From NCBI RefSeq assembly GCF_009914755.1, contig NC_060932.1: DNA of 64,000 bases, one strand, 5' to 3'. A program made the translations under genes and the position numbers. The notes under the pieces were generated by a model that made no database searches, was not told the origin of the DNA, and saw nothing but the letters and a program-made list of their open reading frames with translations. The stretch is from the human T2T-CHM13v2.0 reference genome, Homo sapiens. Of the stretch, positions 7,081 to 39,200 are shown piece by piece (the first letter of the stretch is position 1; every line of letters begins with the position of its first letter).

Positions 7081-7797
7081 ATACATATATACATATTTAT
7101 ATAAATATATATTATATTTATATAAATATATTTTATTATATAAATATTTATATAAATGTATTTATATAAATATATTTTATTATATAATATATTTTATTAC
7201 ATAAATATTTATATAAATATATATTTATATAAATATATTTTATTATATAAATATTTATATAAACATATATTTATATAAATATATTTTATTATATATTTAT
7301 ATAAATATATGTTTATATAAATATATTTTATTACATAATTATTCATATAAATATATATTTATATAAATATATCTTATAATATATATTTATATAAATATAT
7401 TTTATTATAATATATATTTATATAAATATATTTTATTATAATATATATTTATATAAATATATTTTATTATAATATATATTTATATAAATATATTTTATTA
7501 TATAAATATTTATATAAATATATTTTATTATATAAATATTTATATAATGTATTATATTTATATAAATATTTATATAATGTATTATATTATATAAATATTT
7601 ATATAATGTATTATATTATATTATATAAATATTTATATAAATGTATTATATTATATTGTATAAATAAATATAAATATTACATTTATATAAATATGAGATA
7701 TTTATATCATATTTATACAAATGTGATATATATATACAAATGTGTTATATTTATATAAATATTTATATAATATATATTTACATATAAATATATATAT
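7081..7797. repeat. AT-rich minisatellite/low-complexity tract with palindromic cores
   Basis: About 720 bp, almost entirely A/T. Repeated perfect palindrome ATATTTATATAAATAT, with ~29-bp units around 7380-7500. Confidence 0.95.
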
Positions 7798-22019: not shown

Positions 22020-22602
22020 GCACACACACACATGTATGTTGCTATTTGTGTGTGTTGGGGTGTGTATGTGTAGGTGTTACTATATGCAGGTGTGTGTATT
22101 AATGTATATTGGGGTGTGTATGTGTTAGTGTATGTCAGTGTGTTGGCACATGTGTTACTGTATGTGTATTAGTGTGGGTATTAGTGTGTTAGTATATGTG
22201 TGTTGATGTGGATGTAAGTGTATGTGCTGGCGCATGTATGTTAGTATATGTATGTATATTAGTGTGTGTTGTGTGTTAGTGTATGTGTTAGTATGCATAT
22301 ATGTTAGTGTATATGTTAGTGTATGTTAGTATGTGTTGGTATATGTATGTATATTAAAGTGTGTTAGTATATATGTGTGTGTTGGTGTGTCTGTGTGCTG
22401 GTATATGCGTTGGTGTGTGTGTGTTAGTGTATATGTTGGTGTGTGTTGGTGTGTGTTTGATATATGTATGTATATTTGTGTTTGTTGATATATGTGTATT
22501 GGTGTGTCTCTGTGTTAGTGTATGTGTTGGTGTATGTGTGTGGGTATATGTATGTATATTAGTGTGTGTGTTGTGTGTGTGTTGTGTGTGTGTGTGTGTG
22601 TG
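22020..22602. repeat. Degenerate (TG)n/TGTA low-complexity tract ending in pure (TG)n
   Basis: About 580 bp of gtgtatgtgttagt-like motifs. Explains the HT/VC-repeat ORFs. Confidence 0.95.
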
Positions 22603-33880: not shown

Positions 33881-36145
33881 TCTCAGTTCTGATAACTGTA
33901 CCATGGTTGTGCAAGGTGCTAATCTTGTATCTTTTTTCTAAGTCTAAAATTATTTCAAAATAAAAGTTTTTAAAAATCTCTAATGGTAAACATAAAATCA
34001 TAAGGTAACAACCAGTACCATTTTGATCTCCTAAAATGTTAGGAGATTCTGGTGATATTTTATAATTACTGTATTTATGCTGAAGCTATTAAAATGAGAG
34101 AGATGCAAGCATTGAAACATCAAAGTACAGGATAAAAATCAGCATCAGATGTGTGTGTATTTCTATTCAGTTCCACCTCAGAGTTGAGATTTTTTTTTAA
34201 AGCATTAAATTAATTCTGTACCACCAAAATGTACAGGTATCTGAAAACAGATAGTGAAGAGTTGCTTTGTAATATTTATCTCTGTTGAAGTTGAGCTTTC
34301 ACAATGTGGTTTAGTTTCAGAGCCTAATGAATAGAAATCATTTTCTTTTGTTCTTCCAAATACCTGAAAATAAGGTGAACAAGCCTCAGTAAACTTTGCC
34401 ATTACATTATGTGGAAGCCACACATATTCAAGAAAATTGTTTTCAACTATCAATTTATATGAAGATTGATAAAGCAATGGGAAACATCCAAGTGAGAGTT
34501 TGTAGGAAATGCCCAAACTGGCCAAATAAATTATTTCAGTACCTATGTGCTTGTTACCTTTCTATCACTTTTATTAAATAGTTGTATTTAATTTTAAAAT
34601 TTTATTAAAATGTTAAAAAGTACAGAGTTTAATCATTTACTTAAAGTCTTGTATTTTATAATATGAATCAGCACAAATATACAAGTTTCAGAAATAACTC
34701 TCACTGCCATAGTGACCTGCCTATTTTACATTTGGGAAGCAGTATCAGCTGATAAGCAAAAAAAAAAAAAAAAAAAAAGTGACTGATGAGTGTTTGCATT
34801 TTTTCTCTCCAAAATAAATGTCTATAACACAAATGATTATTTTCCGTTAGTATAAATACAGTACCAAAATATTTTTAGAAACTGATAAAAATAGGAGATT
34901 ATAACTCTTTACTCTAAATTTTCCTAAAATTCTGCCACCCTACAAATGGCATTTACATTTTTTTTTTTTTTTGACAAGCAAGTGCATCTATCTCAACAAT
35001 AAAAGGACCTAGACTTTTCCTGGTGATATTTTTCCCATGCTAACTGGCATTGAAAAAGTAAAATTGCTTAATGTTAATCAGCCTAATCTGAAGGAGAGGA
35101 AGTTTACTCCCCATTTCTCAACAGATTCTCTTTAATTTGGAAGTAACACTGACAGGTGGCCTCAACACCCAGGGCATTACAGACCACCTTGAAGGTCTCA
35201 GCGGTAGTAGCCTTTGAAGTCAAAATAATCAACAAGTCATTTGATATCCGATCACACGGAAGGGCCCCCAGAGAAGGCCATCTCTCAGGTAGACTGATTG
35301 TCTATCAAATAGGGCTAACTCGATACAGTTTGCTGAACAAATTCATAGACTTTAATGGAACTATAAACTGGAGAGAAATGTCCATTACAAACTGATTTTC
35401 AGTGCTCTTTCTATTAAAATGTTAATATGTTTTTTTAAGACTAGATAAGCATCTAGAAAAAAAGATTCATTACTAATAATGAAAGGAAGAAAGATTAGTT
35501 TGTATCTTATGGACAGATATCCCCCCACCATTTTTGTGAATGGAAAATTATTTTATCAAATATTTTGGGTCAAAGGATATCTCAAGTCACATATAGTGCA
35601 AAAAAAAAAATAAATTTTTTTTCCAGAATAAATGAAGAAGATAGAGAAAAAAATCTGCATTCTTTGGAGGGAATTGATGTTTTTCTATTAGTACAAAGTT
35701 AAATTTTCTGGGCATTAGATGTTCTCTACTCTCTGAAAATGGTTGTTAAGGTTTCCATTTACCAAACCTGATTCCAGTTGCATTTATTGAGTTCTTAGTT
35801 TGGTTCTGCACTCAGTGAAGCAGGTAAATACATGTTTTAATTTATGTAACTAATCTGTACTATTCAAATGAGGAGTGGTTTATAGCTGCATTGTATGCTC
35901 AGGAAAGGATCCAAGACCACATACATGTATATCTGAGACATTCATATTGTCAACATTCATATCAATTCAACATAATACAACAGTTTCTGAGTCTCTCCTA
36001 TGTTTCCCACATTGAACCAAGTGCTATGAAGGGAATTCCATGGAGCAATGGCTTCCTGAATAGTATTTATAAATATCATGGGCATGACTCCCCAAAGTGA
36101 ATGATACATTCAGCATCTTTATATGGCCACAGGTTCCATATAATT

Positions 36146-38136
36146 TTCCAGTTCCAGAATTGGAACTACAGGTCCTGTTACAGTTCCAGAATTAGGACTC
36201 CATTTCCAGTGCCAGTGCCAGAATTGGAACTCCAATTAAAGTTTCAATTCCAGAATTGGAAATCCAGTTCCAGTGCCAGTTCCAGATTTGGAACTCCAAT
36301 TCCACTCCAGTTCCAGAATTGAAACTCCAGTTTCAGGTCCAGGTCCAAAATTGGAACTCCAGGTCCAGGTTTAGTTCCAGAATTGGAACTCCAGTTCCAG
36401 GTTCAATTCCAGAATTGGAACTTTAGTACCATTGTCAGTTCCATAATTAGAACTGCATTTCCAGTTCCAGTTCCAGAATTGGAACTCCAGTTCCTGTTCC
36501 AGTTCCAGAATTGGAACTCCAGTTCCTGTTCCAGAATTGGAACTCCAGTTCCTGTTCCAGTTCCAGAATTGGAGCTCCAGTCTGTTCCAGTTCCAGTTCC
36601 AGAATTGGAACTTAAGTTTCTGTTCCAGTTCCAGAATCGGAACTCCAGTTCCTGTTCGAGTTCCAGAATTGGAACTACGGTTCCTGTTTCTGTTCAGAAT
36701 TGGGACTCCAGTCTGTTCCAGTTCCAAAATTGGATCTCCAGTTCCTGTTTGAGTTCCAGAATTGGAACTACAGTTCCTGTTTCTGTTCAGAATTGGGACT
36801 CCAGTCTGTTCCAGTTCCAGTTCGAGTTCCAGAATTGGAACTACAGTTCCTGTTTCTGTTCAGAATTGGGACTCCAGTTACTTTTCAAGATCCAGAATAG
36901 CAACTCCAGTTCCTGTTCCAGAATTCTAACTCCAGTCTGTTTCAGTTCCAGAATTGGAACTCCAATTCCAGGTTCAATTCCAGAATTGGAACATTAGTTC
37001 CATTGTCACTTCCATAATTATAACTGTGTTTCCATTGCCAGTCGCAGAATTGGAACTCCAGTTCATGTTCCAGTACCAGAATTATAACTCCAGTTCCTTT
37101 TCCAGTTCCAGAATTGGAGCTCCAGTCTGTTTCAGTTAAAGAATTGAAACTCTAGTTATAGTTTCAGTTCCAGAATTGGAACTTTAGTTTCTGTTCCAGT
37201 TCCATAATTGGAACTCCAGCTCCTGTTTGAGTTCCAGAATTGGAACTCCAGTTCTTTTTTCTGTTCCAGAATTGGAACCCCGGTTCCAGTTCCAGAATTA
37301 GAACTCCAGTTTGTTCCAGTTCTAGAATTGGAACTTTAGTTTCTGTTCCAGTTCCAGAATTGGAATTCCAGTTTCAGGTCCAGTTCCAGAAATGGAACTC
37401 TAGTTCATGTTCCAGTGGAGTTCCAGAATCGGAACTCCACTTCCTGTTTTAGTTCCAGAATTGGAACTGAAGTTCCAGTGTCAGTTCCAGAATAGGGTCT
37501 CCACTTCCAGTGCCAGTTCCAGAATTGGAACTCCAGTGCTAGTTCCAGTTTCAGAATTGGAACTCCAGTTACAGGCCCAGTTCTAAAATTGGAACTCCAG
37601 TTCCTGTTCCAGTTACAGAATTGAAACTCCAGTTGCAGTTCCAGGTCCAGAATTGGAATGCCAGTTTCTGTTCCAGGTCCTGGACTGAAACTCCATTTCC
37701 AGTTTCAGGACCAAAATTGGAACTCCAGTTCCAGTGCCAGGTTTAGAATTGGAATTCCAGTTCCAGTGCCAGTTCCAGAATTGGATTTCCAGTTCTAGTT
37801 CCAGGTCCAGAGTTGGAATTCCACTTCCAATTCCAGGTCCAGAGTTGGAACTCCAGTTTCAATTCTATTTCTAGAATTTGAACTCCAGTTTCTTTTCCAG
37901 ATCCAGAATTGGAACTTCAGTACCACTGCCAGTTCCCAAATTGGATCTCCAGTTTTTGTTTCAGTTCCAGAATTGGAACTCCTTTTCCTGTTCCATTTCC
38001 AGAATTGGAACTCCTGTTCCATTTCTAAAGTTGGAACTCCAATCTGTTCCAGTTCCAGAATAGGAACTCCAGTTCCAGTTCCAGTTGCCAAATTGGAATT
38101 CCAAAGCTAGTTCCAGTTCCAGAATTGGAACTCCAG
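36146..38136. repeat. ~2 kb hairpin-core tandem array, ~63 units of ~32 bp
   Basis: Consensus TTCCAGAATTGGAACTCCAG + (TTCCWG)1-3. About 63 cores by manual count. The core inverted repeat is AGTTCCA-GAAT-TGGAACT. Confidence 0.97.
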
Positions 38137-38140
38137 ACCT

Positions 38141-38375
38141 AGGTTCTGGAGTCAGACCATAATTCTAATTCCACTTCTGCCGCTTGCTGATTGGCCTTTG
38201 CTGATTATTTAAATGTTCTGATCTCAGTTTCCTCATCAGTACAATATGGGCAATAAGACACCTACAACATCCTCTGATGTTATCATTAAGATGAAGGAGA
38301 TAATATATGTAAAGTACTTAGCATATATAGCTTGATACAAAATCAATGTTCAGTATCTTGTAGCTTCTATTTATA
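38141..38375 (+). mobile_element. MIR directly abutting the array
   Basis: ggttctggagtcagacc...ctcagtttcctcatcagtac...gataatatatgtaaagtacttagca. Confidence 0.8.
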
Positions 38376-39200
38376 TTCAGAAATGTTGTTCAAGCCTTCC
38401 TGAAAGCTTCTTGGCAAAGCATATATTCTTTTTCAAGGTACTGACTTGTAATTGTTGTTATTTTCATTGTTTAGCTGTTAAGCCACTATTACCTTTGACT
38501 TTCTCCCAATACATCCCCAACTTCTGGAACTCAATAAAAGTATTTGAGTGGATGAATCTAGATCATTCAGAATTTTCTTTAAGAGAGTAGGAGAAAATAT
38601 TTGTAAAGTCTGCCTTAAATACTAGACTGCAGAGGTTGTAGACAAAGATTTTTAATCTATGTAAAACGAGCAAAATTGTGGTTTAGGAAAGGTGTCTGAG
38701 AATAACATTCTAAGTACATTGACAGGAAACACAGAAGCCAATGACAAAAGCTGTTAAAATAATCCAGGTGTTAACTGGAGGTAAGGGGGTAGGCCTCAGA
38801 GATAGTGCAGTAAACTAGATATACAGTTTTAAGAAATGAGCCTCAGGATATACAAACGAGATATATAGTTTGAAGAAATGAACCCAGAAAGTAGTACTAT
38901 TTAGAATAGCACCAGGAAATATGAAATATTTAGTGGAAAAATCTAGCAAAATATGTACAGGATCTGCATGCTGAAAACTACGGATGATAGAAATCAGAAA
39001 AATCTAAAACAAATGGAGCAATTTATAATGTTCATTTTTTGGAAAGCTCAATATTATTAACATGTAAATTTTCCCAAAACTTGTCTATACATTCAATGCA
39101 CTCCCAAACAATATCCCAGCAGGTTTTTTTTTGCAGATATCAACAAAGTTAATTTAAAAGCTTTTTTATTGAAAAGCAAAAGCAAAAAAAACAAAACCTT

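What the first reader, a model, noticed from the sequence alone, without database searches (positions are those of the whole stretch)
36146..38136. ~2 kb array of ~63 regularly spaced hairpin cores (32-bp period)
Seen: each unit is TTCCAGAATTGGAACTCCAG plus usually two TTCCWG hexamers, giving mostly 32 bp (about 25-38 bp). Each holds a 7-bp inverted repeat, AGTTCCA-GAAT-TGGAACT, and the cores look better conserved than the linkers. I do not recognise it as any interspersed repeat or classical satellite, although TTCCA/TGGAA is the HSat2/3 pentamer. Established: TTCnnGAA is a two-pentamer heat-shock element unit, TT-N4-AA is a STAT-type spacing, and TGGAA is the NFAT core. Inference: 32 bp is about three helical turns, so the cores fall on one DNA face. 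The array could be a homotypic factor-binding platform, a cruciform-prone VNTR or a template for a multi-hairpin RNA. It could equally be a neutral old minisatellite.
Basis: partly seen in the sequence, partly recalled or inferred. Interest (0 to 1): 0.8.

Follow-up and report, generated by a model that had tools for sequence, protein, structure and literature searches.

The report
Single-locus 32-bp minisatellite on chromosome 8
This is a real, roughly 2-kb tandem array of 63 copies of a 32-bp unit found at only one place in the human genome; it looks like an old, ordinary minisatellite, and nothing seen here shows that it has a function.

Summary
TRF finds one array at exactly 36146-38136, with period 32, 62.8 copies and 75% matches. 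It has 63 recognisable cores.

The array is locus-specific. All 20 of 20 genome matches to the 22-nt core lie inside it. The 16-nt core occurs elsewhere at about chance level, 78 times against 59 for the control.

Each unit is three TTCCAG-type hexamers plus a 14-bp block that carries an inverted hexamer. Length variants differ mostly by 6 bp. The array grew by multi-unit duplications.

Cores are about 2-fold less variable than linkers: 8.2% vs 18.2%, and 6.5% vs 12.4% for changes that arose after duplication. The hairpin itself shows no constraint:
- 0 compensatory changes among 86 altered stem cells.
- Only 18 of 63 stems are intact.
- The loop bases are the most invariant positions.

There is no 3-pentamer heat-shock element, no STAT site, no NFAT enrichment and no Rfam family. 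The locus is not among the published MORC3-restricted tandem repeats.

Best reading: a neutral old minisatellite. Orthologues, population lengths and chromatin data could not be examined.

The parts
36146..38136 (+). The 32-bp minisatellite array: 63 units, about 62.8 copies by TRF
   Evidence: TRF period 32, 75% matches, score 1721. 63 cores found. 46 of 63 units are exactly 32 bp. The array occurs at one place in the genome.
36469..36486 (+). One example of the exact 18-nt core: 7-bp inverted repeat around a 4-nt loop. 15 of 63 cores are exact.
   Evidence: Folds as single-stranded DNA into a 7-bp stem with a 4-nt loop at -5.4 kcal/mol. Exact-core count.
36655..36896 (+). Youngest part of the array: a block of two to three units copied three times
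   Evidence: TRF period 73, 97% matches at 36737-36878. Tiles match at lag 93 with 98% identity. The copies differ at 2 of 72 and 3 of 63 aligned positions.
36344..36695 (+). Older internal multi-unit duplication, copy A
   Evidence: Aligns to 36917-37266 with 38 differences in 343 aligned positions. Lag-571 tiles are 88-94% identical.
36917..37266 (+). Older internal multi-unit duplication, copy B
   Evidence: Same alignment as copy A.
38142..38400 (+). 5'-truncated copy of an old dispersed SINE-like repeat directly after the array. It is context, not part of the array. The name MIR is recalled, not tested.
   Evidence: Homologous to an independent copy on chr17: the genome search gives 75% over 99 bp, E 2.7e-6. 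The alignment is shown. Local score is 71 against 19 +/- 2.3 for shuffles.
38130..38152 (.). 8-bp perfect inverted repeat bridging the last unit and the SINE-like element (arms 38130-38137 and 38145-38152)
   Evidence: Read directly from the sequence. Not tested against chance.

Best explanation
This is a locus-specific minisatellite (VNTR-type tandem array) with no demonstrated function for the organism.

Anatomy (shown). The unit reads AGTTCC / AGAATT / GGAACT / CC / AGTTCC / AGTTCC. That is three copies of one hexamer plus a 14-bp block containing the reverse complement of that hexamer, which creates the 7-bp inverted repeat.

Origin (inferred). A (TTCCAG)n-type hexamer microsatellite acquired a short inverted segment. 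The resulting 32-bp compound unit was then amplified by replication slippage or unequal exchange.

Growth (shown). The array grew by multi-unit duplications of different ages, and unit lengths vary mainly by one hexamer.

Possible role of the hairpin (inferred). Short hairpins formed by single-stranded units may make slippage easier. That would be a property of the DNA, not a cellular function.

Why cores vary less than linkers (inferred). The 2-fold difference is most simply explained by three things together:
- linker variants copied along with their units, for example A or T at position 27;
- a C-rich linker made of two adjacent identical hexamers that is prone to slippage;
- possibly preferential copying of intact units.
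Selection for a binding site is not needed to explain it.
For: Single locus: the 22-mer core at up to 1 mismatch gives 20 of 20 hits inside the array, 0 on the reverse strand and 0 for the control. The 16-mer core at up to 1 mismatch gives 113 genome hits, 35 in the array and 78 elsewhere, against 59 for the reversed-pattern control. The only other BLAST hits are plain hexamer microsatellites on chr5 and chrX.

Hexamer build and 6-bp length steps: units of 26 bp (x4) alongside 46 of 32 bp; spacings of 26 (x6) and 38 (x2).

Duplication history: lag-571 blocks at 88-94% identity and a lag-93 block at 98%. JC distances are 0.12 for the older block and 0.03-0.05 for the younger one.

No structural constraint: of 441 stem cells, 355 match the consensus, 64 are broken, 22 are G.T and 0 are compensatory. 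Loop positions 9-11 match the consensus at 0.98, 0.94 and 0.97, the highest values in the unit.

No canonical factor sites. No Rfam family near its threshold: the best is 25 bits against a cut-off of 94-102. RefSeq lists no transcript or functional element at the array (hub table in the task).

The core/linker contrast shrinks when only post-duplication changes are counted: 18 of 276 vs 25 of 202, p = 0.035, and 18 of 199 vs 20 of 144 in the large block alone.

The array is almost free of CpG, 7 seen against 90 expected. Low mutability of that kind would help an old array stay recognisable (inference).
Against: The core/linker difference does not vanish under any control I ran:
- 8.2% vs 13.6% after dropping the three most bimodal linker positions, p = 0.0004.
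- The same hexamer TTCCAG varies 20.2%, 15.4% and 9.4% according to its place in the unit, lowest in the core.
- About 2-fold remains among post-duplication changes.
- The core rate is lower than the linker rate in 9 of 10 200-bp bins.

High invariance of the loop bases is what a sequence-specific binding site would show.

A neutral reading is a default, not a demonstration. I could not examine orthologues, population length variation, chromatin or transcription data. The hexamer-plus-inversion origin is read from the unit alone and has no outgroup support.
Confidence: 0.75

Rival explanations
1. Homotypic binding platform. The palindromic core (TTCC, 6 bp, GGAA) is a site for a dimeric or zinc-finger DNA-binding protein, and about 60 copies make a high-avidity cluster. 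It would act as a conditional or repressed enhancer or a chromatin nucleation site in the gene-poor stretch upstream of MSC, like the tandem-repeat enhancers with up to 61 homotypic motifs described for MORC3.
For: Cores are about 2-fold less variable than linkers in every comparison. Both arms and the loop are conserved as sequence: arm mismatches are 37 and 39, and loop positions 9-11 are the most invariant. Conservation is not by pairing. There are 36 TTCnnGAA and 47 CCAAT pentamers in 2 kb. A precedent exists: VNTRs with units of 20-192 bp carrying large homotypic motif clusters can be repressed enhancers (PMC13373173; I read the abstract and sections 7 and 13).
Against: No canonical site of any factor tested: 0 HSE trimers, 0 STAT sites at either spacing, 0 NF-Y-type flanked CCAAT, 0 kappaB, 1 ETS, NFAT at background. 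The locus is not in the MORC3-restricted tandem-repeat table; its chr8 entries are at 0.63 and 143.2 Mb only. RefSeq lists no functional element in the window (hub table). Comparisons between paralogous units cannot separate selection from copying bias. No binding data could be consulted.
Confidence: 0.12
2. Template for a structured, multi-hairpin RNA, for example a precursor of small RNAs.
For: Both strands fold much better than dinucleotide shuffles: z = -11.3 on the + strand and -6.3 on the - strand for 451 nt.
Against: That follows automatically from a unit with an inverted repeat. The predicted fold uses long helices between units, not a row of 7-bp hairpins. There are 0 compensatory changes, and only 18 of 63 stems are intact. 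Rfam gives only plant and insect microRNA models at 18-25 bits against cut-offs of 51-102. No transcript is annotated within 30 kb (hub table). A 7-bp stem is far shorter than a microRNA precursor (established knowledge).
Confidence: 0.03
3. Cruciform-prone or otherwise fragile DNA, where the inverted repeats extrude in duplex DNA and cause breakage or rearrangement.
For: 63 inverted repeats are regularly spaced. The single-stranded hairpin is stable enough to form: -5.4 to -5.6 kcal/mol per unit, z = -2.7 to -3.9.
Against: Arms of 7 bp with a 4-nt loop give little energy compared with melting 18 bp of duplex (inference). Known cruciform-forming human palindromes are far longer (recalled). 45 of 63 stems carry at least one non-Watson-Crick pair. 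The array has evidently persisted long enough for its units to diverge by about 12% from their consensus.
Confidence: 0.04

Closest known systems
Ordinary human minisatellites (VNTR loci)
   Same: Head-to-tail units of tens of bp. A single locus. Internal variant units. Growth by slippage or unequal exchange, seen as multi-unit duplications. Intergenic position next to an old interspersed repeat.
   Different: The unit contains a 7-bp inverted repeat. The units are rather diverged (75% matches) for a 2-kb array. Copy-number polymorphism, the defining 'variable' property, could not be checked.
MORC3-repressed tandem-repeat enhancers (IFNB1-MRE, TWIST2-MRE; PMC13373173)
   Same: Minisatellite-type arrays (unit 20-192 bp) with tens of copies of one short motif, up to 61. 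The present array has 63 cores.
   Different: Those clusters are SPI/ETS, AP-1 or SP/KLF motifs. The present core matches none of them (1 ETS-type match). The locus is not in that study's table of MORC3-restricted repeats.
Human satellites 2 and 3 (pentamer satellites)
   Same: They share the pentamer TGGAA/TTCCA, counted 127 times on both strands in the array.
   Different: Period 32, not 5. The pentamer is part of a TTCCAG hexamer. The array is a single 2-kb euchromatic locus rather than megabase pericentromeric blocks at many loci.
(TTCCAG)n hexamer microsatellites, such as those on chr5 and chrX of the same genome
   Same: 18 of the 32 unit positions are exact copies of this hexamer. Unit length changes by 6 bp. 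These loci were the only other BLAST hits.
   Different: Those loci are short, pure hexamer runs without the 14-bp inverted block and without the 32-bp period.

Membership tests
Minisatellite / VNTR | Tandem head-to-tail repeats with a unit of roughly 10-100 bp | tested here: met
   TRF period 32, 62.8 copies.
Minisatellite / VNTR | A discrete locus, not a dispersed or multi-locus satellite family | tested here: met
   20 of 20 22-mer hits lie in the array. 16-mer hits elsewhere number 78 against 59 for the control.
Minisatellite / VNTR | Copy number varies between individuals | not testable with these tools
   No population assemblies are on hand. The motif is absent from the searchable supplements of PMC8327921 (one file not searched) and PMC11701250. 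No chr8 row was found in the locus table of PMC8275641, whose stored copy is cut, so it decides nothing.
Human satellite 2/3 | Arrays based on the 5-bp unit, at pericentromeric sites on several chromosomes | tested here: not met
   Period 32. Single locus.
Heat-shock element (HSF binding site) | At least three alternately oriented nGAAn pentamers (definition recalled) | tested here: not met
   0 GAAnnTTCnnGAA and 0 TTCnnGAAnnTTC; only 36 two-pentamer TTCnnGAA.
STAT (GAS) site | TTCN3GAA, or TTCN4GAA for STAT6 (definition recalled) | tested here: not met
   0 and 0 in the array.
Structured RNA family | Match to a curated covariance model, or pairs kept by compensatory change | tested here: not met
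   Best Rfam hit is 25.4 bits against a gathering score of 101.7. 0 compensatory changes among 86 altered stem cells.
MORC3-restricted tandem-repeat enhancer | Large homotypic cluster of ETS/SPI, AP-1 or SP/KLF motifs, and listing among the MORC3-bound, accessibility-restricted repeats | tested here: not met
   1 ETS-type match. The chr8 rows of the paper's table are at 0.63 and 143.2 Mb only. My hg38 position for this locus, about 71.77 Mb, is estimated from recalled gene coordinates.
Annotated repeat family (Dfam/RepeatMasker) | Match to a curated consensus | not testable with these tools
   No Dfam or RepeatMasker library is on hand. The genome-wide pattern counts serve as a proxy and show no other copies.

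The most novel reading that the evidence does not exclude
The 63 palindromic cores (TTCC, 6 bp, GGAA, with invariant AAT in the centre) are kept by selection on sequence, not on pairing. They would be sites of an unidentified dimeric or zinc-finger protein, making this array a latent, chromatin-repressed homotypic enhancer or silencer in the gene-poor region upstream of MSC. It would be of the kind recently shown for MORC3-repressed tandem repeats, but with a new motif.
Probability: 0.08. Interest if true: 0.55.

Novelty: new member of a known kind. Interest (0 to 1): 0.2.

Why it matters
As it stands it matters little. The human genome holds tens of thousands of minisatellites (more than 55,000 VNTRs according to the abstract of PMC8327921), and this looks like one of them.

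Two things give it modest value. First, it is a clean example of how a compound unit can arise from a hexamer microsatellite plus a short inversion and then be amplified. Second, the 2-fold lower variability of the core, including its unpaired centre, is a small unexplained signal. It could be tested cheaply once orthologous primate arrays and repeat-aware chromatin maps are consulted. If that signal turned out to be selection, the locus would add a new motif to the recently described class of tandem-repeat enhancers.

Tried and rejected
1. Array derived from the adjacent SINE-like element (my own idea, from apparent similarity to the element's 5' part). Rejected: three units against the chr17 copy score 15 (+) and 11 (reverse complement), against about 15.6 +/- 2 for shuffles. 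The 5' flank also shows no similarity in either orientation (17 vs 19 +/- 2.3).

2. Coding potential. The unit has no stop codon in any frame, so stop-to-stop frames up to 224 aa appear on both strands: 21 frames of 60 aa or more overlap 36000-38300. This comes from the low-complexity unit. A period of 32 is not a multiple of 3. I did not pursue it further.

3. A recalled 23-nt core motif of the SINE family gave 0 matches in the window at up to 3 mismatches and 0 papers. The family name MIR therefore rests on recall plus the homology to one chr17 copy.

4. Literature. The 15-nt core is in 0 papers. 'VNTR + EYA1 + MSC + chr8' gives 0 papers. Supplements of three VNTR catalogues gave nothing usable.

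6. Rfam at permissive threshold gave 9 weak hairpin matches, all far below their cut-offs.

7. A whole-genome BLAST-type search with the 3' flank found only one other copy. That search is insensitive to old repeats, so it says nothing about copy number.

Full report
**What is there**

Reading 35900-38400 and running Tandem Repeats Finder confirm a single array at 36146-38136: period 32, 62.8 copies, 75% matches, 4% indels, score 1721. It is the strongest tandem array in the window. The only other rows scoring 150 or more are an AT-rich array at about 7.1-7.8 kb and a 60-bp repeat at 22.3 kb.

A fuzzy search for the 18-nt core finds 63 cores, and 42 of 62 spacings are exactly 32 bp. After two cores were re-registered, 46 of 63 units are exactly 32 bp. 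The others are 22 (the cut last unit), 26 (x4), 30 (x5), 31 (x4), 36, 37 and 42 bp.

**Anatomy of the unit**

The majority consensus of the 32-bp units reads as hexamer AGTTCC, then AGAATT, then GGAACT (the reverse complement of the hexamer), then CC, then the hexamer twice more. So 18 of 32 positions are three identical hexamers. The 7-bp inverted repeat exists because one inverted hexamer sits 6 bp after a direct one.

The common length variants differ by one hexamer: 26 bp, and spacings of 26 and 38 bp. From this I infer that the unit began as a (TTCCAG)n-type microsatellite that acquired a short inverted segment. That step is inference from the unit alone.

Plain hexamer runs of this kind exist elsewhere. 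They were the only other hits of a genome-wide similarity search, on chr5 and chrX.

**One locus, not a family**

- The 22-nt core with up to one mismatch occurs 20 times in the 3.1-Gb assembly. All 20 are inside this array, on the + strand, with 0 hits for the reversed-pattern control.
- The 16-nt core with up to one mismatch occurs 113 times: 35 in the array and 78 elsewhere, against 59 for the control. Outside the array the core is therefore about as common as chance.

This rules out a dispersed repeat or a multi-locus satellite in this genome. I could not run RepeatMasker or Dfam.

**How it grew**

- Ungapped self-comparison shows a multi-unit block copied at a lag of 571 bp, 88-94% identical per 64-bp tile. 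A young block is repeated at a lag of about 93 bp with 98% identity. TRF sees the latter as a 73-bp period at 97%.
- Gapped alignment gives 38 differences in 343 positions for the older pair, and 2 of 72 and 3 of 63 for the young copies.
- The corresponding Jukes-Cantor distances are 0.12 and 0.03-0.05.
- With recalled neutral rates of 1.2-2.2e-9 per site per year, these are roughly 27-50 and 6-20 million years. The counts are small and gene conversion would distort them, so I take from this only that the array is old and kept turning over.
- Units differ from their consensus at 246 of 1971 aligned positions.
- The array has 7 CpG where 90 are expected from base composition.

**Core against linker**

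- A wrap-around alignment of the whole array to the cyclic consensus treats all positions alike. It gives substitutions at 92 of 1126 core positions (8.2%) and 154 of 845 linker positions (18.2%), Fisher p about 4e-11. Indels are 1.7% and 4.6%.
- Units are not independent, because variants are copied with them. Position 27 is A in 30 units and T in 28. Positions 25 and 31 are also strongly bimodal.
- Leaving out those three positions gives 8.2% vs 13.6%, p = 0.0004.
- Counting only differences between duplicated blocks, which arose after the copying, gives 18 of 276 (6.5%) vs 25 of 202 (12.4%), p = 0.035. In the large block alone it is 18 of 199 vs 20 of 144.
- The same hexamer TTCCAG varies 20.2%, 15.4% and 9.4% at its three places in the unit, least in the core.

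So a roughly 2-fold difference is real as a description and survives every control I could apply, with weakening significance.

What it means cannot be decided from paralogous units. Possible neutral causes are copying bias, a C-rich linker of two adjacent identical hexamers that is prone to slippage, and preferential duplication of intact units. All of these are inference.

**The hairpin**

If pairing mattered, changes in one arm should be matched in the other. Of 441 stem cells (63 cores x 7 pairs), 355 are the consensus pair, 64 are broken, 22 are G.T and none is a compensated pair. Only 18 of 63 cores keep seven Watson-Crick pairs.

The most invariant positions of the whole unit are 9, 10 and 11, in the unpaired loop, at 0.98, 0.94 and 0.97. 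That is the opposite of what a hairpin constraint predicts.

Both strands fold much better than shuffles as RNA, z = -11.3 and -6.3 over 451 nt. Any unit with an inverted repeat must do so, and the predicted fold uses helices between units rather than a row of small hairpins.

As DNA, one hairpin is worth -5.4 to -5.6 kcal/mol. I judge this too little to extrude a cruciform from duplex DNA, though it could stabilise slipped intermediates on single strands (inference).

Rfam gives nine matches at E up to 1. All are microRNA models from plants or insects, at 18-25 bits against cut-offs of 51-102.

**Factor-binding ideas**

Counts in the array:
- TTCnnGAA: 36.
- Three-pentamer heat-shock elements: 0 in either orientation.
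- TTCN3GAA: 0, and TTCN4GAA: 0.
- WGGAAA: 10, which is 5.0 per kb against 3.5 per kb in the rest of the window.
- GGAATG: 1.
- An ETS pattern: 1.
- A kappaB pattern: 0.
- CCAAT: 47, but 0 with NF-Y-type flanks.

The motif definitions are recalled. An unknown factor cannot be excluded.

**Helical phasing**

At 10.5 bp per turn, 51 of 62 neighbouring cores lie within 45 degrees of each other. Over the whole array the phases spread out, with resultant length 0.20. The value swings between 0.05 and 0.52 for helical repeats of 10.4-10.6 bp. 'One face' is a statement about neighbours only.

**Surroundings**

The 3' flank from about 38142 is a 5'-truncated copy of an old dispersed repeat.
- It aligns with an independent copy on chr17 over roughly 240 bp.
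- The local score is 71 against 19 +/- 2.3 for shuffles.
- I recall this element as the MIR SINE, but a recalled core motif matched nothing in the window or in papers. The name is therefore unverified.

My idea that the unit derives from this element was rejected.

An 8-bp inverted repeat spans the junction, with arms at 38130-38137 and 38145-38152. I did not test it against chance.

According to the hub's table, no transcript or RefSeq functional element lies at the array. The nearest gene model ends about 31 kb upstream.

**Literature**

- The core sequence is in no paper of the searched library, and no paper combines VNTR, EYA1, MSC and chr8.
- The motif is not in the searchable supplements of the human-specific VNTR study PMC8327921 (three files searched, one not) or of the 8,222-genome VNTR map PMC11701250.
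- No chr8 row was found in the locus table of PMC8275641. The stored copy is cut, so it decides nothing. My coordinate prefixes there rest on recalled gene positions.
- A relevant precedent is PMC13373173 (abstract, sections 7 and 13, and one supplementary table read). Minisatellites with units of 20-192 bp and up to 61 homotypic motifs can be MORC3-repressed enhancers. Their motifs are SPI/ETS, AP-1 or SP/KLF. The table's chr8 entries are at 0.63 and 143.2 Mb, so this locus is not among them in that cell type.

**Verdict**

The feature is real and the description accurate. The best-supported reading is an old, locus-specific minisatellite without known function (about 0.75).

The one loose end is the lower variability of the core, including its unpaired centre. 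This keeps a sequence-specific binding platform alive as a minority reading (about 0.1). Structured RNA and cruciform readings are unlikely.

What is missing is exactly what these tools cannot give: orthologous arrays, population allele lengths and chromatin data.

Noticed in passing
window 7081-7797: AT-rich tandem array. TRF gives periods 2, 30 and 46, with scores 420-615. It coincides with a stretch masked in NCBI's file.
   Followed up: no
window 22302-22476: Short tandem repeat of a 60-bp TG/TA-rich unit: 2.9 copies, 67% matches.
   Followed up: no
window 38142-38400: 5'-truncated copy of an old dispersed SINE-like element directly abutting the array. It is homologous to a copy at G000 chr17:40574303-40574398 and its flanks. 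I recall it as MIR; the name was not verified.
   Followed up: partly
window 38130-38152: Perfect 8-bp inverted repeat with a 7-nt spacer spanning the junction between the last unit and the SINE-like element. It could hint at how the inverted hexamer arose, but it was not tested against chance.
   Followed up: no
L007 about 1505-1560 (chr5) and L008 about 1485-1570 (chrX): Pure or nearly pure (TTCCAG)n / (CTGGAA)n hexamer microsatellites. They are the only other similarity hits to the array, and are possible models of its ancestral state.
   Followed up: partly
window 36150 and 38115: The first and last units of the array both carry an exact 18-nt core. Array edges are usually expected to be the most degenerate part. 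15 exact cores of 63 is close to the roughly 13 expected from the per-site core rate (my arithmetic), so this may be chance.
   Followed up: partly
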